64,000 bases of DNA from Minisyncoccota bacterium. GTDB lineage: Bacteria > Patescibacteriota > Minisyncoccia > Phycocordibacterales > DATDWN01. The stretch covers positions 11,262-75,261 of the forward strand of contig DATDWN010000016.1 in the NCBI GenBank assembly GCA_036517395.1, written 5' to 3'. Both the position numbers and the translations under genes were made by a program. The notes beneath the pieces were generated by a model that was not told the origin of the DNA, did no database searches, and saw only the letters and a program-made list of their open reading frames with translations. Positions 4,319-59,668 of the stretch are shown one piece after another. Each line of letters opens with the position of its first letter. Within the stretch, counting starts at the first letter, position 1.

Positions 4319-4345
4319 ACCGCCTAAAGCGGTGTTTTCTTGCAC
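4319..4345. terminator. bidirectional hairpin (CCGCCTAAAGCGG) followed by a T-run on both strands
   Basis: Stem CCGC/GCGG with TGTTTTCTTG downstream on the + strand and TTGTTTTTG on the - strand. Confidence 0.35.
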
Positions 4346-5013: not shown

Positions 5014-5134
5014 TATTTAGTAGATCAAAAAATATTAAAATAATTGCTAGATAAATATTGACTTGTGTTTATATATATTGAGGAGTAACATATGAATACT
5101 TGATTATTAACAAATTACTAATAAAGATACACCT

Positions 5135-5635: not shown

Positions 5636-5641
5636 AAGATT

Positions 5642-6547: not shown

Positions 6548-6548
6548 T

Positions 6549-6941: not shown

Positions 6942-6945
6942 ATTT

Positions 6946-7410: not shown

Positions 7411-7413
7411 TTT

Positions 7414-9272: not shown

Positions 9273-9339
9273 CCACACTCTCGGCCAGGACCATCCATTG
9301 GTCTAGGTAAGTCTTTAATGCTAAACTCAACTTATTACA

Positions 9340-10185: not shown

Positions 10186-10194
10186 ATACTGAAT

Positions 10195-10539
10195 ATGAAA
10201 AAATTAACTTTATTAATAGCATTATTCTGTTTCACTTTCTTTCCCTTAGTTTCTTTTGCTCACCCAGGAAGGACAGACTCATCAGGTTGCCACACCTGCA
10301 AGACTAATTGCCCTAATTGGGGGCTATCATATGGAGAGTATCATTGTCATAACTCCAAAGGCACTACCCAGCCCAAAGAGCCTATAAAGAGCACTTATGG
10401 GGCAAATGGGACCGGTTCCGTTTCTCCAGCTCCTGAGTATAAGACACCAAAGGTGGAGGCAGTTAAAACTAATACTCAAACAAGTGCGAAGACTGCAGAA
10501 AAAAGTAATTGGTTCACTCGATTATTTAGTTGGCTTTAA
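10195..10539 (+). CDS. small secreted Cys/His-rich protein
   Basis: Signal peptide; 'CHTCKTNCPNW...YHCH'. Confidence 0.45.
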   Translation: MKKLTLLIALFCFTFFPLVSFAHPGRTDSSGCHTCKTNCPNWGLSYGEYHCHNSKGTTQPKEPIKSTYGANGTGSVSPAPEYKTPKVEAVKTNTQTSAKTAEKSNWFTRLFSWL

Positions 10540-10796
10540 TAATTAATATGGAAAAGATAAAACAACAAAAATATGTAATTTTAATATCACTAATAATATT
10601 AGGGTTTGTTTTTTATTGGTTTGAATTAAGACCAAATAATATTAGAAAAGAGTGTATAAAAACTTATCCTGATGCTTTTAGAATACCGACTGATGATAAC
10701 GGTATTGGTCGTTTAATAAGTGTCGGTAACTATAAAGGTAGTATTGATAAAGCAGGTTATGAAAAATGTCTACGGGAAAATGGTTTAGATAGATAA
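10530..10796 (+). CDS. small membrane-anchored hypothetical protein
   Basis: 88-aa ORF with an N-terminal TM helix. Confidence 0.35.
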   Translation: MALIINMEKIKQQKYVILISLIILGFVFYWFELRPNNIRKECIKTYPDAFRIPTDDNGIGRLISVGNYKGSIDKAGYEKCLRENGLDR

Positions 10797-10802
10797 AATT
10801 AT

Positions 10803-11114
10803 ATGAGAATTAATAAAATATTATCAATAGTATCTGGAGTAATGCTTCTACTGGCAATTCCATCTATGTGGCCATATGGTTATTATCAATTACTTCGATG
10901 GGTAGTCTCAATAGTCGGAATTTCTAACGCTTATCAGACTTATAAATTAAATTCAAAAGGTTGGGCAATAACAATGGTAGTTATAGCTATTCTTTTTAAT
11001 CCCATAGAACCATTAATTTTCTCAAAAGGAACTTGGATTTTATTTGATTTAGCTACAGCTTTTATTATGTTTACGATGTCGTCTAAATTCAAAAATGAAG
11101 TAATAAAAAATTAA
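10803..11114 (+). CDS. small membrane protein
   Basis: 103 aa, 3 predicted TM helices. Confidence 0.4.
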   Translation: MRINKILSIVSGVMLLLAIPSMWPYGYYQLLRWVVSIVGISNAYQTYKLNSKGWAITMVVIAILFNPIEPLIFSKGTWILFDLATAFIMFTMSSKFKNEVIKN

Positions 11115-11119
11115 TTAAT

Positions 11120-11305
11120 ATGAGAAACTTAATAGCACTTATATCTACAGAAGGAAAGTCTCCGGAACAAATTAAAAAAGAGACAGTTTTGGCATTTCAA
11201 AAATATCAGGAAGTAAAAAGCCAAGTTGAAAAGCAATTAAAAGAAACCCAAAAGGAAGTGAGATCACAGATAGTCTTTATTCCGAAGTTTGTCCCAAAAA
11301 AATAG
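11120..11305 (+). CDS. small charged hypothetical protein
   Basis: 61-aa K/E-rich ORF. Confidence 0.3.
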   Translation: MRNLIALISTEGKSPEQIKKETVLAFQKYQEVKSQVEKQLKETQKEVRSQIVFIPKFVPKK

Positions 11306-11595
11306 GATTTTAGAAAGAGTCGTCATTCATAGATGTCTGTACATCAAAATGAACTTTTACCTCCTAAAAACTCTTCTAAAATGCTGTATTACTTCAAAAA
11401 TGTGGATAACTTGACCTTTTTATGTATGTGGAATAGTATAATGAACCTACACGAATGTACCGTGCTCTATAATTCCTTACGGTACACATACACAAATAAT
11501 TATGTTTTCTTGCCACTTTTTTCTGATAAAGAGAAAAAAGTCTGCGGTCTCCGTGAGGAGCTCTTTTTTATTATATAAAATTTCGGCGTAAGATG

Positions 11596-11698
11596 TGAGC
11601 TGGATAGGACTCGAACCTATATCATGACCTTAGAATGGTCAGCCCTGGGGAGGGTATAGTTTTCAAGACTACTGTTCTATCCATTGAACTACCAGCCC
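11596..11698 (-). tRNA. atypical tRNA, anticodon UGA (Ser-like) with extra hairpin; ~103 nt
   Basis: Reverse complement folds: acceptor GGGCTGG/CCAGCTC, D-arm GTTC-AATGGATA-GAAC, anticodon arm GTAGT-CTTGAAA-ACTAT, variable hairpin CCCT-CCCC-AGGG, an additional TGACC-ATTCTAA-GGTCA hairpin, T-arm ATAGG-TTCGAGT-CCTAT. Confidence 0.55.
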
Positions 11699-12757
11699 AC
11701 ATCCTACTCCAAAATTTGGAGTAGAGAAAAACCAATTAAAGTTTTTTCTTTTTATCAGAAGTGCCTTTCTTCTTTGCGGGAGGGGGCATTTTCTGTTTTT
11801 CCTCGTCAACTTCAAAACAAAACGCTCTCAGACCTTTTTCCCATGCATAAAGTATTTTTCCGTTACGCAAAGTAATAAAAGGTCTACATATGAGTGTAGC
11901 CACTTTATTTTATCTATCTGTATCCTAATAATGCCTTTGCTCTTTAGGCGAGCCGTTACGGCTGACACAATTTTCCGTTGGTATAGTTTAGATTACTTAT
12001 TATATAGCTAATCTTATAAACCCAACTCGGCTTTTTGCTTTAGGAACGATTTAGTGGACAGCACTCTGGGAGTTACCCCTCAAGTTTACACCTGGGAAAG
12101 TTTCCTTCCCCAAAATGCTTTCCACCAAATCTTTCAAAAAACATCTTGTCGAGTGCTGTCCACCAATGACTTATTCATCGGTACCATAATTATACTACAT
12201 ACAGTTTTCATTGCAAATAAAATTTCAATATAAAGTTGTGGACAGCCCAAAAAATCAGAAAAATAAAAAATAGATTTTGACTAATCTGTTTTTATAGAAA
12301 AGCTTGGGTAGGGTATGTACCCCCCCACCCCAAAAACACCCTTTATTGCATGGGATGACCTATTGGCGGTATTTCCTCACCACCCCCTGCCAAAGTCGGG
12401 GGTAGATGCACCTCCACCCCCTGGACCATATACGAAGCTTGGAGCGTGTTATGTTAAGATTGGTACATAAAACATTGTGTTTTGGCTCTCATACCAAGTT
12501 CTAACAGCCTCAACAGTGTTCCGCATATACGACGAACCCCACGCGCTCAGCTTACGCGTGGGGACAGGCTGGTAGCTCTCAGGAGAACAGTGATACTACC
12601 AACCATCGAAGAAGGAACGGGAAACCGAAGACGATCACTATGGTCATGATGACCATGCCAAGCAGTAGGGCTTGGCCGTCATGCTCAGTGCAAGACTCGG
12701 GACTGGTCACAATTACCCTCCACTATTCTTTTTACTACAAAACCAATTTTTAATCAA

Positions 12758-17899: not shown

Positions 17900-20159
17900 G
17901 CCTTTTTTTCTCTTCCTGCAAAATTTCTAGTGCGCGGGGAAGTTCTATTGTGTACACATCATCTTCTTTCAGAGAGCGAAAATCTTTTTGATGTACTATG
18001 TATGGCCCGAAACGTCCAATGTTTGCCGTTATCTTTTCACCGGTATCAGGATGAACCCCCAAGACTTTCGGAAGCGACAAATATTTTAGTGCATCAGCCA
18101 ATGTCACCGTGCTCAAATCTTTCTCTCTCGGTATTGATGCCATTTTTGGCTTAATTGCTTTTTTCGAACCCTTGCCCTTCACCCTCTCTCCAACCTGAAC
18201 ATATGGCCCGTACTTTCCAATATTTACAAAAATCGGCAAACCAGATTCCGGATCAACTCCTACGGGTTCATCCTTTTTAATCTCCTCTCCCGCCATAGTC
18301 AAAGCACCTTCACAGTCAGGATAGTTAGAACAGGAAAGAAACTTGCCGTTTCGAGAAAGTTTTATAATCATATCTTTGCCACATTTTGGACATCGGAATT
18401 CGAGACCGGCGTCACCCAGGTTTGTGATCTTATCAATTTTTTCCTTGGCTTTTACATCGGCCAAAAATGGCTTATAAAAAGTAGCCAATGTTTTTACATA
18501 TTCTTCCTTACCCTCGGCTATGAGGTCGAGTTTATCTTCCATGTCAGCCGTGAAGCTGTCGCTTATGTACTCGGCAAAATTTGCTTCCAAAAAACTAGAT
18601 ACAACATCGCCCGTGTCAGTGGGTACCAGTGCCTTGCTCACTTTCTCCACGTAACCTCTATCCTCCAAAGTTTTTATGGTTGAAGCGTATGTACTAGGCC
18701 TTCCTATGCCTCTTTTCTCAAGTTCCTTAATCAATCCTGCTTCAGAGTATCTTCCTGGTGGTTCGGTCTGCTTTTCTTCTGTATTAATTTTTTTCAAATT
18801 AAGAGCCTCACCGATTTTGACTTTTGGCAATTCAACATCATCTCCTCGCGAAGCCGGATCTCCGAGGAGCCATCCAGCAAATTTAATTTGCGAACCAGTT
18901 ATAGAAAAATCCGGAATATGTGTGTCAAGGACAGTCCTTGACATTGACACATTTGCTGATATTTTGGTTCGAAGTGTCAGAGCATCTTTCATTTGCGATG
19001 ACACAGTTCGTCGCCATATGAGCTTATAAAGTTTTTTCTGTTCATCATTAAAACCGACATGCTCGGCTTCAAAATGTGTTGGGCGTATAGCCTCGTGCGC
19101 CTCCTGTGCGTTTTTGGATTTAGTTGCAAATTTTCGTATTTGTAAATATTCTTTACCAAACTTTTTCTCCACCACTGCCGCAATCTGTGCTATAGCAACA
19201 CCACTCAAGTTTGTCGAGTCCGTGCGCATGTATGTAATATGTCCACACTCATATAATTTCTGTGCAATACCCATTGTTCTTGATGGAGAAAATCCTAGCC
19301 GTGATGATGCTGTCTGTTGAAGTGTGGAGGTTATGAAAGGCGCACGAGGGGATTTTTTCACATCCGTCTCTTTTACATCTTTCACAAACCAGCTGTTTTC
19401 CTTTCCTCCCTTTTCTGCAATTTCCACAATCCGCTCCATTTCTTTTTTATCTGTTGGTTCTTCTTCGCAGACAACAGTAAAAATCTGTTTTCCCCTAGGC
19501 AACGCCTCGGGAGATTTATCTGAGGTATCCGAGGCGTTGCCTAGGGAAGAGATCTCTGCTGAAATAATCCAGAAAGCATGAGACTTAAAAGCCCGGATTT
19601 CTCTCTCGCACTCCATGATAATGCGCAGAGCGGGGGATTGGACGCGTCCGGCAGAGAGGCCATATCGTACTTTTTTCCATATCAAACCCGACAAGTCGTA
19701 TCCCACGAGCCTATCGAGGACTCGCCTTGCTTCCTGCGCTTGTCGCAAATTCTGATCGATATCCCGTGGATTTTTCAAAGCTTCCTCTATCGCTTCCTTA
19801 GTAATTTCCTGATATGAAACCCTCTTCACTTTTTTGTTATGTACTATATGTTCTGTGCCCTTATCATTAATAAGTTCTGCCAAGTGCCATGCTATCGCCT
19901 CACCCTCGCGGTCGGGGTCAGTTGCAAGCAGAACTTCACTGGACTTTTTGGCCAAAGCTTTTATACCATTGACCACTTTCTCCTTGCCTTTGGAAATTTC
20001 ATAGTGCGGCACGAAACCACCCTCGATGTCGATGGCCACTTTGTTCGACTTTGGCAAATCACGAACATGGCCGACAGAAGCAACCACTTCATATCCACTT
20101 CCAAGATATTTTGAAATAGTCTTGGCTTTGGCGGGGGACTCAACGATAAGTAACTTCAT
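17874..20159 (-). CDS. topA: DNA topoisomerase I
   Basis: Toprim 'LLIVESPAKAKTISKYLG', active-site region, C-terminal Zn ribbons 'CPKCGKDM', 'CSNYPDC'. Confidence 0.9.
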   Translation of the reverse strand: MKLLIVESPAKAKTISKYLGSGYEVVASVGHVRDLPKSNKVAIDIEGGFVPHYEISKGKEKVVNGIKALAKKSSEVLLATDPDREGEAIAWHLAELINDKGTEHIVHNKKVKRVSYQEITKEAIEEALKNPRDIDQNLRQAQEARRVLDRLVGYDLSGLIWKKVRYGLSAGRVQSPALRIIMECEREIRAFKSHAFWIISAEISSLGNASDTSDKSPEALPRGKQIFTVVCEEEPTDKKEMERIVEIAEKGGKENSWFVKDVKETDVKKSPRAPFITSTLQQTASSRLGFSPSRTMGIAQKLYECGHITYMRTDSTNLSGVAIAQIAAVVEKKFGKEYLQIRKFATKSKNAQEAHEAIRPTHFEAEHVGFNDEQKKLYKLIWRRTVSSQMKDALTLRTKISANVSMSRTVLDTHIPDFSITGSQIKFAGWLLGDPASRGDDVELPKVKIGEALNLKKINTEEKQTEPPGRYSEAGLIKELEKRGIGRPSTYASTIKTLEDRGYVEKVSKALVPTDTGDVVSSFLEANFAEYISDSFTADMEDKLDLIAEGKEEYVKTLATFYKPFLADVKAKEKIDKITNLGDAGLEFRCPKCGKDMIIKLSRNGKFLSCSNYPDCEGALTMAGEEIKKDEPVGVDPESGLPIFVNIGKYGPYVQVGERVKGKGSKKAIKPKMASIPREKDLSTVTLADALKYLSLPKVLGVHPDTGEKITANIGRFGPYIVHQKDFRSLKEDDVYTIELPRALEILQEEKKRRGFKKKSK

Positions 20160-20198: not shown

Positions 20199-20350
20199 TT
20201 TATCTGCGACGAGAGAGGAGCGCGTGAATGTGTAATCACATTCACAGCGTCCGAACGAGGAGTAGCAATGGTAAAAACCCCGCCCCTCTGGGGCGGAACA
20301 GGGGTCCAGGGCTTGCCCTGGGGTTTCATACCATTGATTAAAAACAATTG
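20199..20350. repeat. 140-bp structured repeat (family C), copy 1, between topA and dprA
   Basis: Near-identical to 42403-42540; hairpins GTGAATGTG-TAAT-CACATTCAC, GCCCC-TCTG-GGGGC, CCAGGGC-TT-GCCCTGG; carries the SD and mini-ORF. Confidence 0.8.
20267..20350 (+). CDS. 27-aa mini-ORF (MVKTPPLWGGTGVQGLPWGFIPLIKNN) inside the 140-bp repeat, perfect SD
   Basis: GAGGAG 5 nt upstream of the ATG. A second copy at 42471 differs by a synonymous CCC/CCA change. Confidence 0.4.
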
Positions 20351-21520: not shown

Positions 21521-22810
21521 ATGGCTATGCTAGATATAAAATTCATAAGGGAAAACAAAGATCTTATTTCTGCTGGAGCTCTAAAAAAGCACATCCAGTT
21601 TGATGTGGAAGCACTTCTCAAACTTGATGACAAGCGTCGTGAGCTTATGACTTCTATCGAGCAGAAGAGGGCCGAACAAAATGAAGTTAGTGAGAAAATA
21701 GTCAAAATCTCTGACAAGGCTGAAAAAGAGCAAATGATAGCCGAGATGAAGTTGGTCAAGGACGAGTTGCAAAAAGAAGAAGAGGAGCTGAAAACGGTTA
21801 TGCACGACTGGCAGGTACTGATGGTAGCTGTGCCAAACATACCCGATATATCCGTGCCTGATGGTGTGGACGACAAAGACAATAAAGAGCTTAAACGATG
21901 GTCTCTTTTTGGGGGCGATATTCCAAAGTTCGATTTCACACCGAAAGACCATATCGAGCTTATGCAAAATCTCGGCATACTCGACATCGAGCGTGGGGTA
22001 AAAGTGGCGGGCTTTCGAGGGTACTTTCTCAGAGGCGATGGCGCAAGACTGCAGTTTGCCTTGTGGAGATTTGTCGAGGATTTCTTTTCCAAAAAGGAAG
22101 GCTTTGTGCCGATGATTGCTCCTACGCTTTTAAAAAGAGAAACTTTTATGGGTACTGGCTATATTCCGCAGGGCGAGGAGGATTTGTATAAAACTCAAGA
22201 TGGCGAATATCTGGCGGGTACGGCCGAAGTCGGAATGATGGGCTACTACATGGATGAAGTTTTGCAAAAAAAAGATTTGCCAATAAAAATGCTTGGATTC
22301 TCTTCTTCTTTTCGTCGTGAGGCCGGAAGTCATGGCAAGGACACTCGGGGTATTTTGCGTGTGCACGAGTTTTATAAATTTGAACAAGTTGTTTTGTGCG
22401 AAGCTTCACACGCCGAGTCAGTAAAATATCATGAGGAAATACAGCGCAATACAGAGGAGATTACGGAGGCTTTGGGTTTGCCATATCACGTCGTAGCGAA
22501 TTGTGGAGGGGATCTCGGGTTGGGACAGGTCAAAAAATATGATATCGAAGTCTGGCTTCCATCGGAAAATACGTATCGCGAGACAGGCTCGGCTTCTTAC
22601 TTTCACGATTTTCAGACTCGTCGCTTAAACATCCGCTACAAAGATGACGACGGCAAAATGAAGTTTGCTCACTCGCTAAACAATACCGCTCTTTCTGGTA
22701 GGCCACTTATTATGATTGTAGAAAACGGACAGCAGGCTGATGGTTCGATAAAAATTCCAAAAGTGCTTCAGCCGTACATGAACGGTCAAACAACTATTTC
22801 AAGGAAATAG
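21521..22810 (+). CDS. serS: seryl-tRNA synthetase
   Basis: N-terminal coiled coil and class II motifs ('FRREAGSHGKDTRGILRVHEF', 'GRPLIMIVENGQ'). Confidence 0.9.
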   Translation: MAMLDIKFIRENKDLISAGALKKHIQFDVEALLKLDDKRRELMTSIEQKRAEQNEVSEKIVKISDKAEKEQMIAEMKLVKDELQKEEEELKTVMHDWQVLMVAVPNIPDISVPDGVDDKDNKELKRWSLFGGDIPKFDFTPKDHIELMQNLGILDIERGVKVAGFRGYFLRGDGARLQFALWRFVEDFFSKKEGFVPMIAPTLLKRETFMGTGYIPQGEEDLYKTQDGEYLAGTAEVGMMGYYMDEVLQKKDLPIKMLGFSSSFRREAGSHGKDTRGILRVHEFYKFEQVVLCEASHAESVKYHEEIQRNTEEITEALGLPYHVVANCGGDLGLGQVKKYDIEVWLPSENTYRETGSASYFHDFQTRRLNIRYKDDDGKMKFAHSLNNTALSGRPLIMIVENGQQADGSIKIPKVLQPYMNGQTTISRK

Positions 22811-22888
22811 TTGTAATTTAGACTTTTTAATTTAGAATTTAAAAATTAAGTCTAAATTCTAAATTTTAAATTAAAAATTTACTACCTT
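22811..22888. repeat. AT-rich palindromic repeat (family D) 5' of the ftsQ-like gene
   Basis: AATTTAGACTTTTTAATTTAGAATTTAAAAATTAAGTCTAAATTCTAAATTTTAAATT; a similar copy lies at 23792-23875. Confidence 0.65.
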
Positions 22889-23791
22889 ATGATTTCCTCA
22901 ACTTCGTCATCACTCTCTCACGAGGTATACCTGAGAAAAAAGAGAAACAAAAAACTTTTTCGGTATGGGTTAATTATTTTTATCATCGTAGCTCTCGTCG
23001 CTCTTGTTTCTTATGTTTCTCACAGACCACAGATTCGTATATCAAAGGTTGAACTTTCTGGAGGTGTTTTGGTTACAGAGACCGATGTCGATGCCAAATC
23101 CCGAGAGTATTTGTCCGGCTCGTATCTCTGGCTTTTCCCAAAGAACAACACTTTTTGGTATTCCGAGGGAGGCCTAGCGGACTATCTCAAGGAAAGTTTT
23201 AAAAGAATTGACACCATAAGTATTCACAGAAAAGATCTGAAAACTTTGGTGGTGGAAATAAAAGAACGCAAACCAGTAGCCATGTGGTGCGAAGGTAATC
23301 CAGGAGAAGTGCGACCAAGCTTGAATGCTGGGTCAGAAGTGCAACCGAGCGGGAGCGAGGGCGTACTGAGCTCAGCAGAGCGAACGTGCTATTTCCTAGA
23401 CCAGAATTCAACCATTTTTGCCAAAGCCCCAAACTTCTCGGGTGATGCCTATTTCAAATTTTATGGTTCGATTTCCGGAAACAATCCAATCGGCACGGAA
23501 TATATAGCAAGTAGCACAGAGTTCGCCGAGCTTTCTGATTTTATAATAAAGACAAAACAACTTTCACTTCGGCCTCAATATATGATTGCAAAAGATGGCG
23601 GGGAATTTAGTCTAGTTATTGCCGGTGGCGGACAGATTATGTTTGATATGCGCTTGCCCTTAGCAACTGTTGCTCAAAATCTTGAAGCGCTTTTGCGTAC
23701 ACAAGTATTGGCTACTAGCACAAGCGGAGTTCTCCCTGTCGAGTATATTGATCTGAGATATGGAAATAAGCTATTTTACAAAATAAAATAG
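22889..23791 (+). CDS. FtsQ/DivIB-like cell division protein (TM + POTRA)
   Basis: N-terminal TM, POTRA-like 'IRISKVELSGGVLVTETDV', beta domain. Confidence 0.55.
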   Translation: MISSTSSSLSHEVYLRKKRNKKLFRYGLIIFIIVALVALVSYVSHRPQIRISKVELSGGVLVTETDVDAKSREYLSGSYLWLFPKNNTFWYSEGGLADYLKESFKRIDTISIHRKDLKTLVVEIKERKPVAMWCEGNPGEVRPSLNAGSEVQPSGSEGVLSSAERTCYFLDQNSTIFAKAPNFSGDAYFKFYGSISGNNPIGTEYIASSTEFAELSDFIIKTKQLSLRPQYMIAKDGGEFSLVIAGGGQIMFDMRLPLATVAQNLEALLRTQVLATSTSGVLPVEYIDLRYGNKLFYKIK

Positions 23792-23875
23792 CAATTTAAA
23801 ATTTAGACTTTAAAATTTAAAAATTAACTATAAATTCTAAAGTCTAAATTTTAAATTTATAATGTTGAACTTCTC
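23792..23875. repeat. AT-rich palindromic repeat (family D) 3' of the ftsQ-like gene / 5' of dus
   Basis: Direct near-repeat of 22811-22888. Confidence 0.65.
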
Positions 23876-23900: not shown

Positions 23901-24962
23901 ATGAACTTCTGGCATCAACTCAAACGCCCTATCATGGTTCTCGCGCCCATGGCTGACGTAACGGATGCGGCTTTTCGTCGCATCATTGCAAAATATGGTA
24001 AGCCGGACGTCATGTGGACAGAATTTGTTTCGGCTGACGGTCTGTTTATGGGAGGATATGAACATCTAATAAAAGATCTGGCTTTCACAGAAGCCGAGAG
24101 ACCTATCGTGGCCCAATTTTTCACAAGTAAACCGGAGATGATGGAGAAAGCGGCGGAGCTGGCGTGTGATCTAGGTTTTGATGGGATAGATATAAACATG
24201 GGATGTCCCGACAAATCAGTGGAAAAGCAGGGAAGTGGTTCAGCTCATATAAAAGATTATAAAAATGCTCAAAAAATTATTCGCGCGGCCATGAGAGGTG
24301 CGGAGAAAGCATTCCAAAGGTCCGACCTTAAAAACCCAAACTCCCAAGGTCGGACCTTGGGTCCCATACCCGTTAGTGTCAAAACGCGTATTGGTTACAA
24401 TAAAAATGAACTTGATACATGGCTACCGGCACTTCTTGAGACCAATCCCGCGGTGATAACAATCCATGCACGAACCAGAAAAGAAATGTCCTCTGTTCCT
24501 GCTCGTTGGGAGCATGTGAAGGAAGCTGTGGAGATAAGAAATAAATTTTTTGATTCTAGTGGCAAGAAAAGTCAGACGCTGATTTTTGGCAATGGAGATG
24601 TCGTAGGCACTGATGACGCTAGGAGAAAGTGTGAAGAAACCGGATGTGACGGTGTCATGCTCGGTCGCGCGATTTTCGGAAACCCGTGGCTTTTTAACAA
24701 ACCACTCCAGATGTCAAGGACAGTCCTTGACACGAAAGATAAGGAGGTCTCGATTCCAGAAAGGTTGAGAATAATGGTTGAGCACACGAAACTTTTTGAA
24801 GAAATATTGCCATACAAAAGTTTTGCAATAATGAAAAAACACTACAAAGCCTACGTGACGGGTTGGCCTGATGCAAAAGAACTAAGATTGAAACTGATGG
24901 AAGCCAAAGATGCTGGGGAAGTGGAGGCTGTTGTGGGAGAGTATCTAGCTAGTCTGACTTGA
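23901..24962 (+). CDS. dus: tRNA-dihydrouridine synthase
   Basis: 'MVLAPMADVTDAAFRRI', 'GFDGIDINMGCP', TIM-barrel Dus motifs; contains two palindromic in-frame segments. Confidence 0.85.
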   Translation: MNFWHQLKRPIMVLAPMADVTDAAFRRIIAKYGKPDVMWTEFVSADGLFMGGYEHLIKDLAFTEAERPIVAQFFTSKPEMMEKAAELACDLGFDGIDINMGCPDKSVEKQGSGSAHIKDYKNAQKIIRAAMRGAEKAFQRSDLKNPNSQGRTLGPIPVSVKTRIGYNKNELDTWLPALLETNPAVITIHARTRKEMSSVPARWEHVKEAVEIRNKFFDSSGKKSQTLIFGNGDVVGTDDARRKCEETGCDGVMLGRAIFGNPWLFNKPLQMSRTVLDTKDKEVSIPERLRIMVEHTKLFEEILPYKSFAIMKKHYKAYVTGWPDAKELRLKLMEAKDAGEVEAVVGEYLASLT

Positions 24963-25299
24963 CTTATTTTTCATATAAGCAGATTCTATAAGTAGAAATC
25001 ACAGGTATGGGGTAGCGGGATACTGCGGGATGTTTCCCGGCGACCCATAACTGGGTCTTAATGGCTCTCGCGTTTCTTACTGTGATTTTTAGGGCTTGAC
25101 GTGCTGGGGCGTCTTGGGGGCGTCGGTATGTGCATGAAGTGCACGCCGATTTACATAGCTCCGAGACGCAGCTGGTGTCTCCCCGCATTCTCTGAAAGGA
25201 GATTGCAATCGCTAGATCAGACTTTATACCTCGGGGTCGGGACGAGACCCCGAGGTATCCAACGCCGACTCGCATACGAGCGGTGTTTTTTGTTATACT

Positions 25300-25440
25300 A
25301 TATCCGCACACTAACTTTGCTCTCGTTGCATTCAGTCTCAAAATATAGATGTATATCTTAGATTTAGATATAATTTCTAACTTTTGCTTGATTGTTAATG
25401 TGGCAACAGGGAGACAAGAGCAAAGTTAGTGTGCGGATAA
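25300..25440. repeat. family A MITE-like element, copy 1 (TIR TATCCGCACACTAACTTTGCTCT), abuts dnaX ATG
   Basis: Terminal inverted repeats; right end GTGTGCGGATAAATATG includes the dnaX start codon. Confidence 0.8.
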
Positions 25441-38716: not shown

Positions 38717-38804
38717 AATTTACAATTATCAATTTACAATTTCCAATCAATTCTCAATGTTCCAATGATTCAATTTGAAAATTGAGAACTGAAAATTGAA
38801 AATT
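38717..38804. repeat. ~88-bp AT-rich repeat (family D) abutting the apbE ATG
   Basis: ...CAATTCTCAATGTTCCAATGATTCAATTTGAAAATTGAGAACTGAAAATTGAAAATT-ATG; ~95% identical to 41342-41430. Confidence 0.75.
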
Positions 38805-41341: not shown

Positions 41342-41430
41342 GAATTTTCAATTATCAATTTACAATTTTCAATCAATTCTCAATGTTCCAATGATTCAAT
41401 TTGAAAATTGAGAACTGAAAATTGAAAATT
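41342..41430. repeat. ~88-bp AT-rich repeat (family D) abutting the msrA ATG
   Basis: Near-identical to 38717-38804. Confidence 0.75.
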
Positions 41431-41982: not shown

Positions 41983-42030
41983 AATAAAATCATTCCGACA
42001 TTCTCAAGAATGTCGGAATGATTTACTAAA

Positions 42031-42438
42031 ATGGATATGGATATAGACGAGGAAGAATTAAAAAATAAACTTACGCCAGAGGAGTATGCGGTTTTGAGAG
42101 AAAAGGGAACAGAAACTCCATTTAGCGGAAAGCTTTTACACGATGATAGAAATGGAATGTATAAATGCAAAGTCTGCGGCGCTTCACTTTTTTCATCCGA
42201 TGCCAAGTTTGATTCTGGTACCGGTTGGCCAAGTTTTGATCAGGCCATTCCCGGAAGTGTCAAAGAAGTGAAGGATGACACCCTCGGAATGAGTCGTATA
42301 GAAGTGGTTTGCGCAAAATGTAACTCTCATCTCGGTCACTTATTTGATGACGGTCCAACTAAAACTGGAAAAAGATATTGCTTGAACTCCGTCTGCCTTG
42401 ATTTATCTGCGACGAGAGAGGAGCGCGTGAATGTGTAA
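42031..42438 (+). CDS. msrB: peptide methionine sulfoxide reductase B
   Basis: 'CKVCGASLF', 'CAKCNSHLGHLFDDGP', 'RYCLNS'. The last ~10 codons extend into the 140-bp repeat. Confidence 0.9.
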   Translation: MDMDIDEEELKNKLTPEEYAVLREKGTETPFSGKLLHDDRNGMYKCKVCGASLFSSDAKFDSGTGWPSFDQAIPGSVKEVKDDTLGMSRIEVVCAKCNSHLGHLFDDGPTKTGKRYCLNSVCLDLSATREERVNV

Positions 42439-42590
42439 TCACATTCACAGCGTCCGAACGAGGAGTAACAATGGTAAAAACCCCGCCCCTCTGGGGCGGA
42501 ACAGGGGTCCAGGGCTTGCCATGGGGTTTCATACCATTGATCCGCACACTAATTCTGCCATGGTCCTGTTTTGAAATAATCCTAAAATAA
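42403..42590. repeat. 140-bp structured repeat (family C), copy 2, after msrB; mini-ORF 42471-42590
   Basis: Two substitutions versus copy 1; the one inside the mini-ORF is synonymous (CCC to CCA). Confidence 0.8.
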
Positions 42591-51622: not shown

Positions 51623-52909
51623 GTGAAATCTTTTTCTTTTGATATACATTCTGAACTTCCAAATTCTCTCGGACGAGTTGGTACAATACACACTCCACAT
51701 GGTGACATACAAACACCGGCATTTGTCGCAGTTGGAACAAAAGGCACGGTAAAAAGTTTGACGCCGGAACAGGTCGCAGATACTGGCACACAAGTCATAA
51801 TCGCAAATACATATCATTTATATTTAGAGCCCGGAGACGAAAAGATAAAAAATATTGGAGGGTTGCACAAAGCGATGAACTGGTCTGATCCTCTTATGAC
51901 CGACTCTGGCGGCTTCCAAGTTTTTTCTCTAGGTGTCGCATATGGCAAAAAGATTAGCAAAGTTTCAAAAAAAGATGAACTAATACTATCCAAGCCTCTC
52001 CCTATGTCCGACATAGGGAGATTTGCGGAAACAAGACTTCAACAAGATGAGGCAGTACCAAAGATTGCTCGAATTGATTCCAATGGGGTAATGTTCCGCG
52101 ATCATATATCGGGCAGCGCTCACTATTTTACTCCGGAAAAATCGATAGAGATTCAGCACAATCTCGGCGCAGATATTATTTTTGCCTTTGACGAATGCAC
52201 CTCACCTCATGAGTCGCTTCATTATCAGAAAGAAGCGCTTGAGAGAACTCACCGCTGGGCTCGACGTTCTCTTGAACATCATTCCGACATTCTCAAGAAT
52301 GTCGGAATGAATGGCCCTGCGATTTTTGGCATTGTGCAGGGCGGGCGAGATGAAACCTTGCGTAAAGAAAGTGCAAAATATATGGCAGATTTAAGGGCCG
52401 GAGGTCCTGAACGAAGCGAAGGATTCGACGGTTTCGGAATAGGCGGATCATTTGAAAAAGAAGATATGAGCAAGGCAGTAGAATGGTGCAATCAGATTTT
52501 GCCAAGAGAGAAGCCAAGGCATCTGCTTGGTATCGGCGAGCCAACCGATTTATTTATGGCGGTTGAGTTCGGGTGTGATTTGTTTGACTGTGTTTCACCC
52601 ACTCGTATCGCTCGAAACGGCGGAGTTTATACAAAAGAAGGAAGAGTCAATTTACTGAATCAAGAATTTCGAGAAGATTCAAAACCTCTCGACCAAGGTT
52701 GTCTCTGCTACACATGCAAAAACTTTTCGTGCGCTTATGTTGCACATCTCTTTCATGCAAAAGAAATTTTGGCTTATACGCTGGCATCAATACACAACCT
52801 TTATTTTATAACTCACATGGTGGATGGTATGCGCGAGACTATGCAAAGCGGGGATTTTGAAAGCTACAAAAAAGATTTTTTAAGTAAATACTACAGGACT
52901 AATTTGTGA
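51623..52909 (+). CDS. tgt: queuine tRNA-ribosyltransferase
   Basis: 'LMTDSGGFQVFSL', 'DCVSPTRIARNGG', Zn site 'CLCYTCKNF...H'; carries a 30-bp palindromic segment at 52290-52319. Confidence 0.9.
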   Translation: MKSFSFDIHSELPNSLGRVGTIHTPHGDIQTPAFVAVGTKGTVKSLTPEQVADTGTQVIIANTYHLYLEPGDEKIKNIGGLHKAMNWSDPLMTDSGGFQVFSLGVAYGKKISKVSKKDELILSKPLPMSDIGRFAETRLQQDEAVPKIARIDSNGVMFRDHISGSAHYFTPEKSIEIQHNLGADIIFAFDECTSPHESLHYQKEALERTHRWARRSLEHHSDILKNVGMNGPAIFGIVQGGRDETLRKESAKYMADLRAGGPERSEGFDGFGIGGSFEKEDMSKAVEWCNQILPREKPRHLLGIGEPTDLFMAVEFGCDLFDCVSPTRIARNGGVYTKEGRVNLLNQEFREDSKPLDQGCLCYTCKNFSCAYVAHLFHAKEILAYTLASIHNLYFITHMVDGMRETMQSGDFESYKKDFLSKYYRTNL

Positions 52910-52921: not shown

Positions 52922-55021
52922 ATGCAGTTTAAAATACACAGGGAGTTCGAGCCCGCGGGGGATCAGCCCAAAGCTATTGAAGCATTAGTTGATGGAGTAA
53001 AAAAAGGTCTGAAACATCAGACACTTTTTGGTGTGACTGGATCCGGTAAAACTTTCACGGTAGCAAACGTCATACAAGAAATCCAAAAACCAACTCTGGT
53101 CATCGCCCACAACAAAACTCTAGCCGCTCAGCTGGCTCAGGAATATCGCGAATTTTTCCCGAACAACGCCGTGCATTATTTTGTTTCTTATTACGACTAC
53201 TACCAACCCGAGGCCTACATGCCCGTCTCTGACACATATATAGAGAAGGAAGCAATGATAAATGAGGAGATTGAGAGACTTCGTCACGCTTCGACGCAGG
53301 CTCTTCTCACACGAAAGGATGTTATCATCGTCGCCTCAGTTTCTTGCATCTATGGCCTCGGTTCTCCCGTCGAATATGAAAAAGTAAATATGAAAATAGC
53401 CGTGGGACAGGAAATTTCTCGGGCGGAATTTATCAGAAGTTTAGTTGATGTCCATTTTGAGAGGACTAGCGCAGATCTTTCGTCGGGACAATTTCGAGCC
53501 ATAGGGAACATGTTAGAAATTATGCCGATTTCAGAAAAAAATATTTACCGTATTGAAATCGAGGCCGGCAACCACAGTACCAGAGCAAAGCTCGGTACGG
53601 GGCATAGAATAAAACAAATATTGGAAATTGACTCGATTACTCGAAGTATAGTAAGAGAAGTCAGCGCATTTTTTCTTTTTCCCGCCAAACATTTCATTTC
53701 CACGAAAGAGCAAAACGAAAGAGCCTTCAAATCTATCAAAGCGGAACTGACCGAGCGACTAAAAGAATTAGAAAAAGAAGGCAAGTTGCTCGAAGCGGAA
53801 AGGCTGAAGAGACGCACGACTTATGACTTGGCTCTTATCCGCGAGATGGGATATTGCAACGGCATAGAAAACTACTCTCGGCATTTTTCTGGGAAGATGG
53901 CGGGAGAAGCGCCTGACACTTTGCTTTCATATTTTCCCCACAAGGCCGACGGTTCGGCAGATTTTTTGACGATTATCGATGAGTCTCACGTTACGGTTCC
54001 GCAAATAGGTGCTATGTATGGAGGGGATTCATCTCGAAAACAGTCGCTTGTTGATTTCGGATTTCGATTACCAAGCGCAAAAGACAACAGGCCTTTGAAA
54101 TTTAAAGAGTTTGAAGAGAGGATGGGACAGTGTATATATACGAGCGCCACCCCGAATGATTATGAAAGAGAACACTCACAGCAGACCGTGGAGCAGGTTA
54201 TACGACCGACGGGTCTTATTGATCCAGTTGTTGAGGTTCGACCAATAGTATCCTCCCCGAGGTCTGACCTTGGGAAATTAGATGTTAAAGGTCAGACCTC
54301 TGGAATTCCGTATCCGGGTCAAATAAAAGATTTCATACAAGAATCCGAGAAAGCCATAAAAAAAGGTGGGAGGGTTATAGCCACAACTCTAACTAAAAAG
54401 ATGGCAGAAGATTTAAGCGAATATTTGAAAGAGGGGAATATTAAAGCGGAATATTTGCACAGTGATATAAAAACAATACAGCGCATTGAGATACTGACAG
54501 CTTTTCGTCGCGGTGAATTTGATATTTTAGTCGGAGTGAATTTGCTTCGAGAAGGTTTGGATTTGCCGGAGGTGACGCTTATTGGTATTTTGGAAGCGGA
54601 TAAAGAAGGATTTCTACGAAGCGAAACTTCTCTTATACAAATTATAGGTCGTGCGGCGCGAAATGTAGATGGAAAAGTCATTTTGTACGCCGATCACATG
54701 ACCGGTTCGATGGAGTATGCCATAAACGAGACAAACCGCAGACGCGCTCTGCAAGTGGACTACAACACAAAACACGGTATCACTCCGAAAACTATAATAA
54801 AAAAGATTCAGGACATAACCGACCAGATGAAGACAGAACATGCGAAAACTGTGAGCGATTTACTCGAAATTGATAAAAAACTATTTGAAAAAGATCCACA
54901 GAAATTGATAAAGCAAAAAGAAAAACAAATGGAGGGAGCTGTGAAAATCTTGGACTTTGAGACGGCCGCTATCTTGCGTGACGAGGTTTTGGAATTACAG
55001 AGGTTACTTGGAAAAAAATGA
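52922..55021 (+). CDS. uvrB: excinuclease ABC subunit B
   Basis: 'GDQPKAI', 'GVTGSGKTFT', helicase motifs, C-terminal UvrB/C interaction 'AAILRDEVLELQ'. Confidence 0.95.
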   Translation: MQFKIHREFEPAGDQPKAIEALVDGVKKGLKHQTLFGVTGSGKTFTVANVIQEIQKPTLVIAHNKTLAAQLAQEYREFFPNNAVHYFVSYYDYYQPEAYMPVSDTYIEKEAMINEEIERLRHASTQALLTRKDVIIVASVSCIYGLGSPVEYEKVNMKIAVGQEISRAEFIRSLVDVHFERTSADLSSGQFRAIGNMLEIMPISEKNIYRIEIEAGNHSTRAKLGTGHRIKQILEIDSITRSIVREVSAFFLFPAKHFISTKEQNERAFKSIKAELTERLKELEKEGKLLEAERLKRRTTYDLALIREMGYCNGIENYSRHFSGKMAGEAPDTLLSYFPHKADGSADFLTIIDESHVTVPQIGAMYGGDSSRKQSLVDFGFRLPSAKDNRPLKFKEFEERMGQCIYTSATPNDYEREHSQQTVEQVIRPTGLIDPVVEVRPIVSSPRSDLGKLDVKGQTSGIPYPGQIKDFIQESEKAIKKGGRVIATTLTKKMAEDLSEYLKEGNIKAEYLHSDIKTIQRIEILTAFRRGEFDILVGVNLLREGLDLPEVTLIGILEADKEGFLRSETSLIQIIGRAARNVDGKVILYADHMTGSMEYAINETNRRRALQVDYNTKHGITPKTIIKKIQDITDQMKTEHAKTVSDLLEIDKKLFEKDPQKLIKQKEKQMEGAVKILDFETAAILRDEVLELQRLLGKK

Positions 55022-58062: not shown

Positions 58063-58236
58063 TTATCGTCGCCGAAGCCGAATCGTGTCACAGATCTCGT
58101 CGATGATGCAACCAAGCATGGTCAGCCCTGCTCCCAAAGCGAGAGTATGACGAATCGTCATCATGTCCGCTGTGAGCAACACTATCGCCATCTCGAGAAG
58201 TGCAAACCACAGGTTGTTTCGTTGCCTCTCAGTCAT
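58063..58236 (-). CDS. 57-aa GC-rich small membrane protein with strong SD (MTERQRNNLWFALLEMAIVLLTADMM...)
   Basis: AGGAGGG 4 nt upstream of the ATG on the minus strand; two hydrophobic helices; GC-rich versus flanks. Confidence 0.4.
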   Translation of the reverse strand: MTERQRNNLWFALLEMAIVLLTADMMTIRHTLALGAGLTMLGCIIDEICDTIRLRRR

Positions 58237-58270
58237 GAGCCCTCCTACTTCGTATAATATCATATTTATA

Positions 58271-59668
58271 ATGAATAATCGAAATATTAAAAAAGTAATA
58301 TCTAAATTCCCGGATTCTCCTGGGGTGTATATTTTCCTTGGCTCGCCGAAACGTAGTGGAGGCGGCAAGTCCAAAAGTGAAATTCTTTACATAGGCAAAG
58401 CCACATCCCTCCGTGACCGAGTTAGAACTTACATGTCAAGGACAGTCCTTGACACTCGAAGTCCACTCATAGCTAAGATGCTGGAGGAGTTTGAAGATAT
58501 CGAATACATAAAAACAGATTCTGTTTTGGAAGCACTTGTTTTGGAAGCCAATCTCATAAAAAAACACCAGCCGGAAGCAAATATAAAAGAAAAAGATAAT
58601 AAAAGTTTTAACTTTGTTGTGATTACCAAAGAAGATTTTCCTCGTGTTTTAGTTATCCGCGGTCGTGAACTGCTGCAATCGCGCATTATGTCAAGGACGC
58701 CCCTTGCCAAAAATTCAAAAATGGCAAAGGGCGTCTTTGACATTAAAAATCAGTTCGGTCCATTTCCAAACGGCGGACAGCTGAAGGAAGCACTGAAAAT
58801 AATTCGCAAGATGTTTCCGTATCGGGATAAGTGTAATTCTGCGGAAGTCCGACTTCCGCAGAAAACGTATTCAGGGAAGCGACCGAGCGGGAACGATGGG
58901 AGTACTGAGGCCAACAGGCCGAATGTAGCCTGTTTTAATCGTCAGATAGGTTTGTGTCCAGGAGTTTGTACAGGAGAAATTACAAAAGAGGATTATCAGA
59001 AACAAATCCAAAATATTATTTTGTTTTTTCGGGGTAATAAAAAGCGATTGCTGAAAAACCTTGAGAAACAAATGCGAGGTTTCGCAAAAAATCGAGAGTT
59101 TGAGAAAGCCGGCGAAGCTAAAAAAACAATTTTTCTTCTAAAACATATTCAGGATATATCGCTTATAAAAGAAGATTGCAAAGGTTCGACCTTAAAGAAT
59201 GGTGCCCAAGGTCGAACCTTGGATTCAGAGACATTCCGAATCGAATCTTATGATGTCGCACACATGTCTGGACAAAATGTTGTTGGGGTTATGATTGTTG
59301 TCGAGGATGGTGAAGTGAAGAAGTCTGATTATAGGAAGTTCAAAATAAAAAACAATCCAAGTGTAAACGATACTAAAGCCTTGACAGAAGTACTGTCGAG
59401 AAGGTTGGCACATATAGAATGGCGATTTCCTGATTTGATTGTTGTCGATGGAGGGACGGCGCAAAAGAGAGTGATGGAAAAGATTTTGCGGGAGAATAAA
59501 GTGAATATTCCCGTTGTTTCTGTTGTCAAAGATGAGAGACATAAACCGAAGAATATACTAGGTGACAGACAGTGGTTAAAATATGAGAGAGAAATAATTC
59601 TAGCAAACAGCGAATCACATAGATTTGCTATTGGATATCATAGAAAGCTCAGAGGGAAGTTTGGATAA
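58271..59668 (+). CDS. uvrC: excinuclease ABC subunit C (short form, lacks C-terminal HhH)
   Basis: GIY-YIG 'GVYIF...ILYIGKATSLRDRV', UvrBC-binding 'LLKNLEKQMRGFAKNREFEKAGEAKK', RNaseH-like endonuclease domain. ATG at 58271 preferred over the track start. Confidence 0.85.
   Translation: MNNRNIKKVISKFPDSPGVYIFLGSPKRSGGGKSKSEILYIGKATSLRDRVRTYMSRTVLDTRSPLIAKMLEEFEDIEYIKTDSVLEALVLEANLIKKHQPEANIKEKDNKSFNFVVITKEDFPRVLVIRGRELLQSRIMSRTPLAKNSKMAKGVFDIKNQFGPFPNGGQLKEALKIIRKMFPYRDKCNSAEVRLPQKTYSGKRPSGNDGSTEANRPNVACFNRQIGLCPGVCTGEITKEDYQKQIQNIILFFRGNKKRLLKNLEKQMRGFAKNREFEKAGEAKKTIFLLKHIQDISLIKEDCKGSTLKNGAQGRTLDSETFRIESYDVAHMSGQNVVGVMIVVEDGEVKKSDYRKFKIKNNPSVNDTKALTEVLSRRLAHIEWRFPDLIVVDGGTAQKRVMEKILRENKVNIPVVSVVKDERHKPKNILGDRQWLKYEREIILANSESHRFAIGYHRKLRGKFG

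What the first reader, a model, noticed from the sequence alone, without database searches (positions are those of the whole stretch)
59181..59220. Sister copy of the AAGGTYCGACCTT palindromic element inside uvrC
See the dus copy. Two members of one palindromic family lie in-frame inside two different DNA-repair or tRNA-modification genes within 35 kb.
Basis: seen in the sequence. Interest (0 to 1): 0.6.

Follow-up and report, generated by a model that had tools for sequence, protein, structure and literature searches.

The report
REP hairpin repeat inside uvrC gene
The 40-base hairpin inside uvrC is a copy of a small mobile palindromic repeat (a REP doublet) that is linked in related bacteria to an IS200-like transposase; it sits in frame in many housekeeping genes of these tiny bacteria and adds a short loop to the protein, as is already known from other bacteria.

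Summary
Window 59181-59220 is a perfect 13-bp inverted repeat (AAGGTTCGACCTT / AAGGTCGAACCTT) with a 14-nt spacer. It lies in frame in uvrC and encodes KGSTLKNGAQGRTL.

The organism is a Candidate Phyla Radiation (CPR) bacterium (Paceibacterota). A scan of 185,579 species genomes found the same two-arm motif in at least 119 loci, almost all CPR. About half the copies sit inside long ORFs, in every frame and in both orientations. The two free central bases of the arms are complementary in 123 of 137 copies.

In related CPR genomes the same palindrome flanks an IS200-like tyrosine (Y1/HUH) transposase gene on both sides. Of 73 such genes, 66 have matching palindromes on their two flanks. These palindromes include the cores of the window's other two palindrome families.

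The element is therefore a REP doublet ("REPIN") of a system of REP-associated tyrosine transposases (RAYTs), tolerated as a peptide in an interdomain linker. Intragenic REP dimers, including copies in uvrA and uvrB, were described in 2013, so this is a new member of a known kind. No transposase gene lies in the window or within 10 kb either side. Conservation at orthologous sites remains unexplained.

The parts
59181..59220 (.). The finding: a REP doublet (REPIN-like hairpin). Arm AAGGTTCGACCTT (59181-59193), spacer 59194-59207, arm AAGGTCGAACCTT (59208-59220). It is translated as KGSTLKNGAQGRTL in the UvrC linker.
   Evidence: The same arms flank a RAYT-like gene in L166.
58163..59668 (+). 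Host gene uvrC. The annotated product starts at 58271 (465 aa). Domains: GIY-YIG, weak UVR motif, RNase H-like endonuclease domain; no (HhH)2 domain.
24317..24358 (.). Sister REP doublet in dus (AAGGTCCGACCTT, 16 nt, AAGGTCGGACCTT). It encodes QRSDLKNPNSQGRTL. The site is empty in the L086 ortholog.
54259..54300 (.). Third REP doublet, in uvrB (GAGGTCTGACCTT, 16 nt, AAGGTCAGACCTC). It is part of a roughly 20-aa insert (residues 443-462) relative to solved UvrB structures.
58434..58454 (.). REP singlet of a second family (TGTCAAGGACAGTCCTTGACA) in uvrC, encoding MSRTVLDT. Identical copies lie at 18923-18943 (topA) and 24712-24732 (dus).
   Evidence: The core AAGGACNGTCCTT occurs only next to RAYT-like genes in the independent locus set (5 of 5).
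58837..58863 (.). Perfect 13-bp palindrome TTCTGCGGAAGTC-C-GACTTCCGCAGAA in uvrC. Its core GAAGTCNGACTTC forms doublets in other CPR loci.
19493..19546 (.). An 18-bp perfect hairpin (CCCTAGGCAACGCCTCGG, 18 nt, its reverse complement) in frame in topA. It occupies the same protein site where L086 and L107 carry AAGGTC-family copies.
   Evidence: The core AGGCAACGCCT flanks the RAYT-like gene of L161.

Best explanation
The element is a REP doublet (a "REPIN"): two inverted copies of a roughly 13-15-nt REP (CAAGGTC-N-GACCTTG) separated by a 12-18-nt spacer. It belongs to a family of short palindromic repeats spread through Candidate Phyla Radiation (Patescibacteria) genomes. In related genomes the family is physically associated with a RAYT-like Y1 (HUH/tyrosine, IS200-like) transposase.

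Inferred mechanism, by analogy with E. coli TnpA-REP and the IS200/IS605 family: the transposase recognises the repeat as a hairpin in single-stranded DNA. It cuts and rejoins that strand, copying the doublet to new sites without a target-site duplication.

Copies that land in frame, carry no stop codon and sit in a tolerant surface or linker segment of a protein survive and are translated. Here the result is 14 hydrophilic residues between the UVR motif and the endonuclease domain of UvrC.

Shown here: family membership, dispersal, the hairpin with compensatory changes, insertion relative to orthologs, and the transposase association in other CPR genomes. Inferred: that a transposase of this kind moved this particular copy, that the insert is translated, and that it is harmless.
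For: 1. Dispersal. The two-arm pattern hit at least 119 loci in species-representative genomes, nearly all CPR. My own estimate of chance is about 4 hits in 596 Gb.
2. Hairpin under maintenance. The two unconstrained central bases of each arm are complementary in 123 of 137 copies, where chance is 1 in 16. Six different base combinations occur. The orthologous uvrC copy in L001 differs by TC/GA to CT/AG.
3. The signal is in the nucleic acid, not the protein. Of 137 copies, 72 sit in ORFs of at least 200 aa, in all three frames. The spacer orientation is 42 same and 21 opposite relative to the gene. Hosts are unrelated housekeeping genes.
4. These are true insertions with presence/absence among orthologs. 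Most UvrC orthologs lack it. Dus site 1 is filled in the window and in L065 but empty in L086. UvrB has about 20 extra residues relative to solved structures. TsaD has three sites that are filled or empty in different lineages.
5. Transposase link. The gene L064:3282-4004 matches Pfam Y1_Tnp (32.4 bits, cut-off 23) and has the HUH motif (NHFHVLL) and the tyrosine motif (YIHLNPVK). It is flanked by 3 + 2 copies of GGTAC[GA]AGGTCCGACCT[CT]GTAC, with one more inside the gene. L094 shows the same arrangement.
6. Independent confirmation. In 80 loci fetched through the protein alone, AAGGTC-type arms flank the gene on both sides in 9. Of the 31 arms found, 28 lie next to the gene, although that zone is only 40% of the sequence (P = 8e-9). 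Left and right flanks share an 11-mer or longer in 66 of 73 loci, against a mean of 5.4 for permuted pairs.
7. The cores of the window's other two palindrome families occur only next to such genes in that set (5 of 5 and 2 of 2).
8. Literature. REPINs are defined as inverted REP doublets that form hairpins with compensatory changes, linked to flanking RAYT genes (PMC3116915). Intragenic REP dimers encoding 20-30 aa, including copies in uvrA and uvrB, are described in PMC3733652. Y1 enzymes act on hairpins in single-stranded DNA (PMC3479197).
Against: - No RAYT-like gene is present in the 64-kb window or in 10 kb on either side (tblastn). The rest of the genome could not be examined.
- The three window copies differ in spacer and central bases, so nothing shows recent movement in this genome.
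- The window copies lack the 5' GTAG or CGTC tag of classical REPs.
- The transposase scores 41.8 bits against the NCBIfam model REP_Tyr_transpos, below its cut-off of 80.
- Orthologous copies are 78-100% identical while host four-fold degenerate sites are saturated at 35-46%. Pure selfish tolerance does not predict this.
- About a quarter of copies have copy-specific flanks that extend the palindrome. A simple cut-and-paste model does not predict this either.
- No biochemical evidence exists for any CPR enzyme of this kind.
Confidence: 0.75

Rival explanations
1. The hairpin is a host-selected cis-element, with or without a mobile origin. It could be an mRNA stem that slows ribosomes or RNases at a domain boundary, or a DNA hairpin or palindrome bound by a conserved CPR protein. 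On this view it is kept by purifying selection.
For: Orthologous copies keep 78-100% nucleotide identity (arms 92-100%) while four-fold degenerate sites of the host genes are only 35-46% identical. The high identity does not extend into the flanks. The arm sequence is the same across very distant CPR lineages. The stems are stable. The REPIN literature itself argues that these systems benefit the host (bioRxiv 10.1101/2021.07.10.451892).
Against: Orthologs with empty sites are common. Copies occur in all frames and in both spacer orientations. Different palindrome families occupy the same protein site in different lineages. Decayed single arms occur in many UvrC orthologs. No Rfam family matches.
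Confidence: 0.15
2. It is a miniature inverted-repeat element (MITE or RPE type) moved by a DDE transposase, with the 13-bp arms acting as terminal inverted repeats.
For: It has two inverted 13-bp arms around a short core. In Lloydbacteria the copies are bounded by TA on both sides (TAC...GTA), which resembles a Tc1/IS630-type TA duplication. Its in-frame location resembles that of the Rickettsia palindromic elements (PMC10969869).
Against: There is no target-site duplication outside Lloydbacteria. Single arms are themselves repeated and palindromic. The gene flanked by the arms is a Y1 transposase, not a DDE enzyme. At 40 nt it is far shorter than RPEs, which are about 150 bp.
Confidence: 0.05
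3. The palindromes arise in place, by template switching or quasipalindrome correction during replication, rather than by movement of an element.
For: 35 of 137 copies have copy-specific flanks that extend the palindrome by 4-18 nt, where 0.5 is expected. In L086 topA the 3' flank GTTTCGGG is the exact complement of the 5' flank CCCGAAAC, whereas the L107 ortholog has GAATCG. uvrB natively encodes arm-like sequence just upstream of its copy (AGGTTCGACCA, which encodes EVRP).
Against: Local copying cannot explain why the same 13-mer occurs in more than 100 unrelated genes and genomes. It also cannot explain the link to a transposase gene. Template switching probably maintains and extends the hairpins, but it does not create the family.
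Confidence: 0.03
4. The arms are DNA uptake signal sequences of naturally competent CPR bacteria, kept by biased uptake and recombination.
For: The motif is conserved at the scale of the whole radiation. Copies sit in poorly conserved protein segments in several frames. Known uptake sequences are enriched in genome-maintenance genes (my recollection of Davidsen et al. 2004, not checked here).
Against: In the loci fetched for the two-arm motif, arms are mostly paired (291 paired against 33 single), and the window has no single arm. The central bases are complementary rather than identical, which uptake would not require. Density is only about 1 doublet per 20 kb. The motif flanks a transposase gene.
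Confidence: 0.02

Closest known systems
REPIN-RAYT systems: REP doublets forming hairpins, with REP-associated tyrosine transposases (Pseudomonas, E. coli; PMC3116915, PMC5581495, PMC3479197)
   Same: Short palindromic REPs occur mostly as inverted doublets with a less conserved spacer. They form a hairpin, and compensatory changes in the stem are common. Copies are many and dispersed. A Y1/HUH transposase gene is flanked by the same REPs. There is no target-site duplication.
   Different: - The doublet is far shorter: 38-44 nt, against REP-to-REP spacings of 71-110 bp in P. fluorescens.
- Each arm is itself a near-perfect palindrome (AAGGTC-N-GACCTT).
- There is no 5' GTAG tag.
- Half or more of the copies are intragenic and translated.
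- The host lineage is CPR/Patescibacteria. None of the 36 papers returned for RAYT, REPIN or 'Candidate Phyla Radiation' (at least two of the three terms) contains the CPR phrase.
- The transposase is below NCBI's RAYT cut-off.
- The transposase gene often carries one REP inside its own ORF.
Intragenic GTAG/CGTC REPs (Di Nocera et al. 2013, PMC3733652)
   Same: REP singlets and dimers are inserted in frame in known genes and encode roughly 20-30 aa. The hosts include uvrA, uvrB, other replication and repair genes, and tRNA synthetases. Some genes carry two inserts.
   Different: In those species the intragenic copies are a minority of mostly extragenic families, and they carry GTAG or CGTC tags. 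Here intragenic copies are about half of all copies, the tag is absent, and the same protein sites recur across many lineages.
Rickettsia palindromic elements (RPEs; Ogata et al. 2000 and 2002, as reviewed in PMC10969869)
   Same: A palindromic repeat is inserted in frame in unrelated housekeeping genes of a small-genome bacterium and is compatible with protein function.
   Different: RPEs are about 150 bp, encode a conserved peptide and have no known dedicated transposase. This element is 40 nt, is read in any frame and is linked to a Y1 transposase.

Membership tests
REP / REPIN-RAYT system | A short (about 20-40 nt) palindromic sequence present in many dispersed copies | tested here: met
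   There are 3 copies in the window and at least 119 loci in CPR genomes. One Lloydbacteria genome has at least 20 copies.
REP / REPIN-RAYT system | Two REPs in inverted orientation with a spacer, forming a hairpin with compensatory changes (the REPIN) | tested here: met
   The arms are complementary at the free positions in 123 of 137 copies. Fold energy is -21 to -31 kcal/mol, z from -3.8 to -5.0. The ortholog in L001 carries a compensatory change.
REP / REPIN-RAYT system | A Y1 (HUH + Tyr) transposase gene flanked by the same REPs | tested here: met
   This holds in related CPR genomes: L064, L094, L166, L132, L129, L164 and others. Both-side flanking was found in 9 of 80 loci for AAGGTC-type arms. 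Any shared palindrome between the two flanks was found in 66 of 73 loci, against 5.4 in the control.
REP / REPIN-RAYT system | A cognate RAYT gene present in the same genome as the repeats | tested here: inconclusive
   tblastn with six RAYT-like proteins finds nothing in the window or in 10 kb on either side.
REP / REPIN-RAYT system | A conserved 5' GTAG (or CGTC) tetranucleotide at the foot of the hairpin | tested here: not met
   The window copies are preceded by TGCA, TTCCA and CCCG. Across copies, position -1 is C or A and position +1 is G or A, and no tetranucleotide is conserved. Some RAYT-flanking copies have GTAC or CTAC...GTAG.
REP / REPIN-RAYT system | Extragenic location | tested here: not met
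   All three window copies, and 72 of 137 copies overall, lie in long ORFs. Intragenic exceptions are documented in PMC3733652.
REP / REPIN-RAYT system | The transposase passes curated family thresholds | tested here: inconclusive
   Pfam Y1_Tnp scores 32.4 bits, above its cut-off of 23. NCBIfam REP_Tyr_transpos scores 41.8 bits, below its cut-off of 80. One source names a homolog a REP-associated tyrosine transposase (P0216).
Rickettsia palindromic elements (RPE) | An element of about 100-150 bp that encodes a conserved peptide | tested here: not met
   This element is 40 nt and is read in three frames and two orientations, giving the peptides RSDL, QGRTL and KVRP.
MITE | Terminal inverted repeats plus a direct target-site duplication | tested here: not met
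   There is no direct duplication. Where flanks are related at all they are inverted.
DNA uptake sequences | A single short motif that is highly over-represented, mostly as isolated copies | tested here: not met
   The window has no isolated arms. In the loci fetched for the two-arm motif there are 291 paired and 33 single arms, and central bases are complementary.

The most novel reading that the evidence does not exclude
The intragenic REP doublets of CPR bacteria may not be merely tolerated. They may be kept by purifying selection at the nucleotide level as part of a domesticated RAYT-REPIN system that does something for the host from inside essential genes, for example structured DNA or RNA at domain boundaries. 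That would explain why orthologous copies stay nearly identical across divergences that saturate synonymous sites, and why the transposase gene carries its own REP in frame.
Probability: 0.2. Interest if true: 0.7.

Novelty: new member of a known kind. Interest (0 to 1): 0.4.

Why it matters
This explains one class of the short, odd-looking insertions found in housekeeping proteins of CPR bacteria. They are translated copies of REP repeats, not assembly errors and not lineage-specific functional motifs. That affects gene calling, alignments and structure prediction in these genomes.

It also extends REPIN-RAYT systems to a large, poorly studied bacterial radiation. There the repeats are unusually small, and about half of the copies lie inside genes.

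Many copies sit at alignable, orthologous positions in conserved genes. They therefore give a direct way to measure how long REPINs persist and whether selection keeps them, which is an open question in the REPIN field.

For uvrC itself the consequence is probably small: 14 extra hydrophilic residues in an interdomain linker.

Tried and rejected
- **Structure prediction.** The AlphaFold2 model of UvrC from a 16-sequence alignment was too poor to use (mean pLDDT 48). It shows coil at residues 292-321, but I do not rely on it.
- **Rfam.** There is no meaningful match to the hairpin (best E about 1, all eukaryotic miRNA models). There is nothing in the dus-dnaX gap either.
- **Literature.** Searches for palindromic or MITE-like elements in CPR found nothing specific.
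- **Uptake-sequence idea.** Rejected: arms are mostly paired and their centres are complementary.
- **TA target duplication.** Seen only in the Lloydbacteria subfamily.
- **Homing by recombination after DNA uptake.** Not supported: nucleotide identity rises only within the element, not in its flanks.
- **Spacer length modulo 3.** If the unit had fixed ends, in-frame copies should be enriched for one spacer-length class. Coding and non-coding copies do not differ.
- **Origin from native uvrB sequence.** The arm-like AGGTTCGACCA that encodes EVRP lies just upstream of the uvrB copy. This may be coincidence or microhomology, but it cannot explain the family.
- **Bias towards repair genes.** Not seen in the CPR host list, although the literature reports such a bias elsewhere (PMC3733652).
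- **Transposase in or near the window.** The search was negative.
Full report
**1. What is at the coordinates**

Window 59181-59193 reads AAGGTTCGACCTT. Window 59208-59220 reads AAGGTCGAACCTT, its exact reverse complement. The 14-nt spacer is AAAGAATGGTGCCC.

The motif, allowing one mismatch, occurs 6 times in the window against 0.12 expected. None of 100 dinucleotide-preserving shuffles reached 6. The local RNA fold is -21 kcal/mol, z = -3.8.

The element lies in frame in an ORF that Pfam identifies as UvrC (GIY-YIG plus the UvrC RNase H domain) and reads KGSTLKNGAQGRTL. The identical protein is annotated in a Candidatus Paceibacterota metagenome-assembled genome, and the nearest relatives are Zambryskibacteria. 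The organism is therefore a member of the Candidate Phyla Radiation (CPR). The hairpin is identical in two independent assemblies from different samples.

**2. Sister copies and other palindromes in the window**

A third copy lies in uvrB at 54259-54300, encoding PRSDLGKLDVKGQTS. The three copies differ at the centre of the arms (CC/GG, CT/AG, TC/GA), but each pair stays perfectly complementary.

The window holds 24 perfect GC-containing hairpins with stems of at least 9 bp. Codon-block shuffles give 0-3. Several more of these hairpins lie in frame in housekeeping genes:
- TGTCAAGGACAGTCCTTGACA occurs three times, in topA, dus and uvrC, each time encoding MSRTVLDT.
- An 18-bp hairpin lies in topA.
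- A 13-bp palindrome lies at 58837-58863 in uvrC.
- Two palindromes lie in tgt.

**3. They are insertions in tolerant places**

*UvrC.* Most of 120 UvrC orthologs have a shorter linker at this point. The closest one (66% identity; locus L001) has a hairpin at exactly the same place: AAGGTCTGACCTT, 14 nt, AAGGTCAGACCTT. In the 465-aa numbering the insert is residues 304-317. It sits after the weak UVR motif (258-291) and just before the RNase H-like endonuclease domain (Pfam 317-448; solved structures align from residue 321).

*UvrB.* The protein has about 20 extra residues (443-462) relative to solved structures, at the point where the alignment splits.

*Dus.* Site 1 is filled in the window (60 extra nt) and in L065 (48 nt, in another frame), but empty in L086. 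At Dus site 2 the window has the MSRTVLDT palindrome, L086 has an AAGGTC-type doublet, and L065 is empty.

*TopA and TsaD.* The window's unrelated 18-bp hairpin in TopA sits where L086 and L107 carry AAGGTC-type copies. TsaD has three sites that are filled or empty in different lineages.

*The UvrC linker across orthologs.* In other orthologs this linker carries a range of palindrome-derived peptides: VSRTVLDT, QGSTL, QGLTLH, SRSNL and PRFDLG.

**4. The family**

I scanned one genome per species (185,579 species) for AGGTNNGACCTT-N12-18-AAGGTCNNACCT. My estimate of chance is about 4 hits.

Properties of the 137 copies:
- The free central dinucleotides are complementary in 123, where chance is 1 in 16.
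- The spacer is 12-18 nt, most often 14, and tends to start with A and end with C.
- 72 lie in ORFs of at least 200 aa, in all three frames. The spacer orientation is 42 same and 21 opposite relative to the gene.
- Hosts are housekeeping genes of many kinds: TsaD 8, class I tRNA synthetases 5, LepA, Def, RecJ and SMC 3 each, and TopA, GatB, Dus, ComEC and UvrC 2 each.

The conserved unit is therefore nucleic acid, not peptide. There is no special tie to repair genes in this data set.

**5. The key result: a transposase**

In Lloydbacteria locus L064, single AAGGTCCGACCT palindromes with GTAC feet are arranged around one gene: three upstream, one inside it in frame, and two downstream. The gene matches Pfam Y1_Tnp (IS200-like) above threshold. 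It has the HUH motif (NHFHVLL) and the tyrosine motif (YIHLNPVK). It matches NCBI's REP-associated tyrosine transposase model, but below that model's cut-off. Homologs lie in five more of the 120 motif-selected loci, and L094 shows the same flanking pattern.

I then fetched 80 metagenome loci through the protein alone, with no use of the DNA motif:
- AAGGTC-type arms flank the gene on both sides in 9 loci.
- 28 of the 31 arms lie within a few hundred bases of the gene, although that zone is only 40% of the sequence (P = 8e-9).
- Left and right flanks share an 11-mer or longer in 66 of 73 loci, against a mean of 5.4 for permuted pairs.

The flanking palindromes form one superfamily, (N)AAGG-xxxxx-CCTT(N), whose inner bases differ from locus to locus:
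- L166 has TACAAGGTTCGACCTTGTA on the left and TACAAGGTCGAACCTTGTA on the right. These contain the uvrC arms of the window.
- L121 and L160 carry AAGGACWGTCCTT, the core of the window's MSRTVLDT palindrome.
- L161 carries AGGCAACGCCT, the core of the window's topA hairpin.

In the independent set these two cores occur only next to the transposase gene (5 of 5 and 2 of 2). The protein family is large: more than 7,700 relatives at E <= 1e-10, named 'transposase' or 'hypothetical' in Parcubacteria-group genomes and, by one source, 'REP-associated tyrosine transposase'.

**6. Interpretation**

The anatomy is that of REP sequences and their doublet form, the REPIN. These are inverted REP pairs with a less conserved spacer. 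They form hairpins, often show compensatory changes, and are proximal to RAYT genes (PMC3116915, PMC5581495).

By analogy with E. coli TnpA-REP and IS200/IS605 enzymes, the enzyme would bind the hairpin in single-stranded DNA and cut and rejoin that strand through a tyrosine (PMC3479197). The lack of direct target duplications here fits what I recall of IS200/IS605 integration, which I did not check in a paper. This step is inferred; nothing here tests the enzyme.

Copies inside genes that keep the frame, carry no stop and fall in a loop or linker survive. The arm sequence has no stop codon in any frame except TGA when the central base is T, and it encodes G, S, T, R, D, Q and K-rich peptides.

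**7. What is already known**

Di Nocera et al. [quoted passage not shown] They found more than half as dimers encoding 20-30 aa. Their examples include uvrA in Opitutus and Thioalkalivibrio, uvrB in Rickettsia, and tRNA synthetases (PMC3733652). Rickettsia palindromic elements are the classic in-frame case (PMC10969869).

The kind of element is therefore known. What I did not find described:
- the CPR lineage (none of the papers returned for RAYT/REPIN contains the CPR phrase);
- the very small size;
- the absence of a GTAG or CGTC tag;
- the high intragenic fraction.

**8. What remains unexplained**

- Orthologous copies are 78-100% identical, with arms at 92-100%. Four-fold degenerate sites of the host genes are 35-46% identical, which is saturated. 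The flanks show no tract of raised identity. Either selection acts on the element or the same sites are re-colonised. Frame and length differences between the two filled Dus sites argue for independent insertion there.
- 35 of 137 copies have copy-specific flanks that extend the palindrome by 4-18 nt, also inside ORFs. The L086 and L107 topA pair suggests that one flank was rewritten to complement the other. This would fit template switching on the hairpin, which would also keep the arms perfectly paired.
- No RAYT-like gene lies in the 84 kb I could see of this genome, and the three window copies are not recent duplicates of one another.

**9. Verdict**

The element is a REP doublet of a CPR REP/RAYT-like system, translated as a linker peptide in UvrC. 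It is a new member of a known kind and of moderate interest, mainly as a way to study how REPINs persist.

Noticed in passing
window 4607-4729 (+): Rfam LOOT RNA (RF03000), 71.8 bits against a gathering score of 46.4, in a 1-kb intergenic region.
   Followed up: no
window 11596-11698 (-): Rfam calls a 103-nt tRNA (61 bits). ARAGORN does not call it, even when run locally. It may be a tRNA with an intron or an unusually long arm.
   Followed up: partly
window 1-12000: A large serine recombinase (654-2486, -) lies next to tRNA-Trp (715-786) and an AAA_25 gene (2942-4051). The region has lower GC (0.34-0.37) and many Zn-ribbon or unknown ORFs. It may be an integrated element.
   Followed up: no
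window 20224-20245 and 42427-42448: An identical 22-nt palindrome, GTGAATGTGTAATCACATTCAC, occurs in two intergenic regions. It looks like an operator.
   Followed up: no
window 24964-25391: A 430-nt gap between dus and dnaX has no convincing gene and contains a 13-bp GC-rich hairpin (25226-25258). There is no Rfam match even at E <= 0.1. It may be an undescribed RNA.
   Followed up: partly
window 51997-52021, 52279-52310 and 41987-42024: tgt (51623-52909) carries two perfect palindromes in frame. The arms of the second (TCATTCCGACATTCT) recur as an 18-bp hairpin in the intergenic region after msrA. I could not link either family to a transposase-flanking REP in my locus set.
   Followed up: partly
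window 22797-22879, 23790-23874, 38747-38792, 41343-41430: AT-rich inverted repeats of a shared type (AATTTAGA..., TCAATTCTCAATGTTCCAAT / ATTTGAAAATTGAGAACTGA) lie in several intergenic regions.
   Followed up: no
window 58271-59668: This UvrC ends right after the RNase H-like domain and has no (HhH)2 domain. Close orthologs are also only 400-480 aa.
   Followed up: no
L064 3443; L094 1739; L132 2656; L125 2656; L186 2669; L124 1202: CPR RAYT-like transposase genes often carry one copy of their own flanking REP in frame inside the ORF, at about the same position, upstream of the HUH motif.
   Followed up: partly
window 23306-23354 (ftsQ-like ORF 22889-23791): There is a direct repeat GAAGTGCGACCAAGC / GAAGTGCAACCGAGC, which encodes EVRPS...EVQPS. 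It resembles an arm but is not inverted.
   Followed up: no
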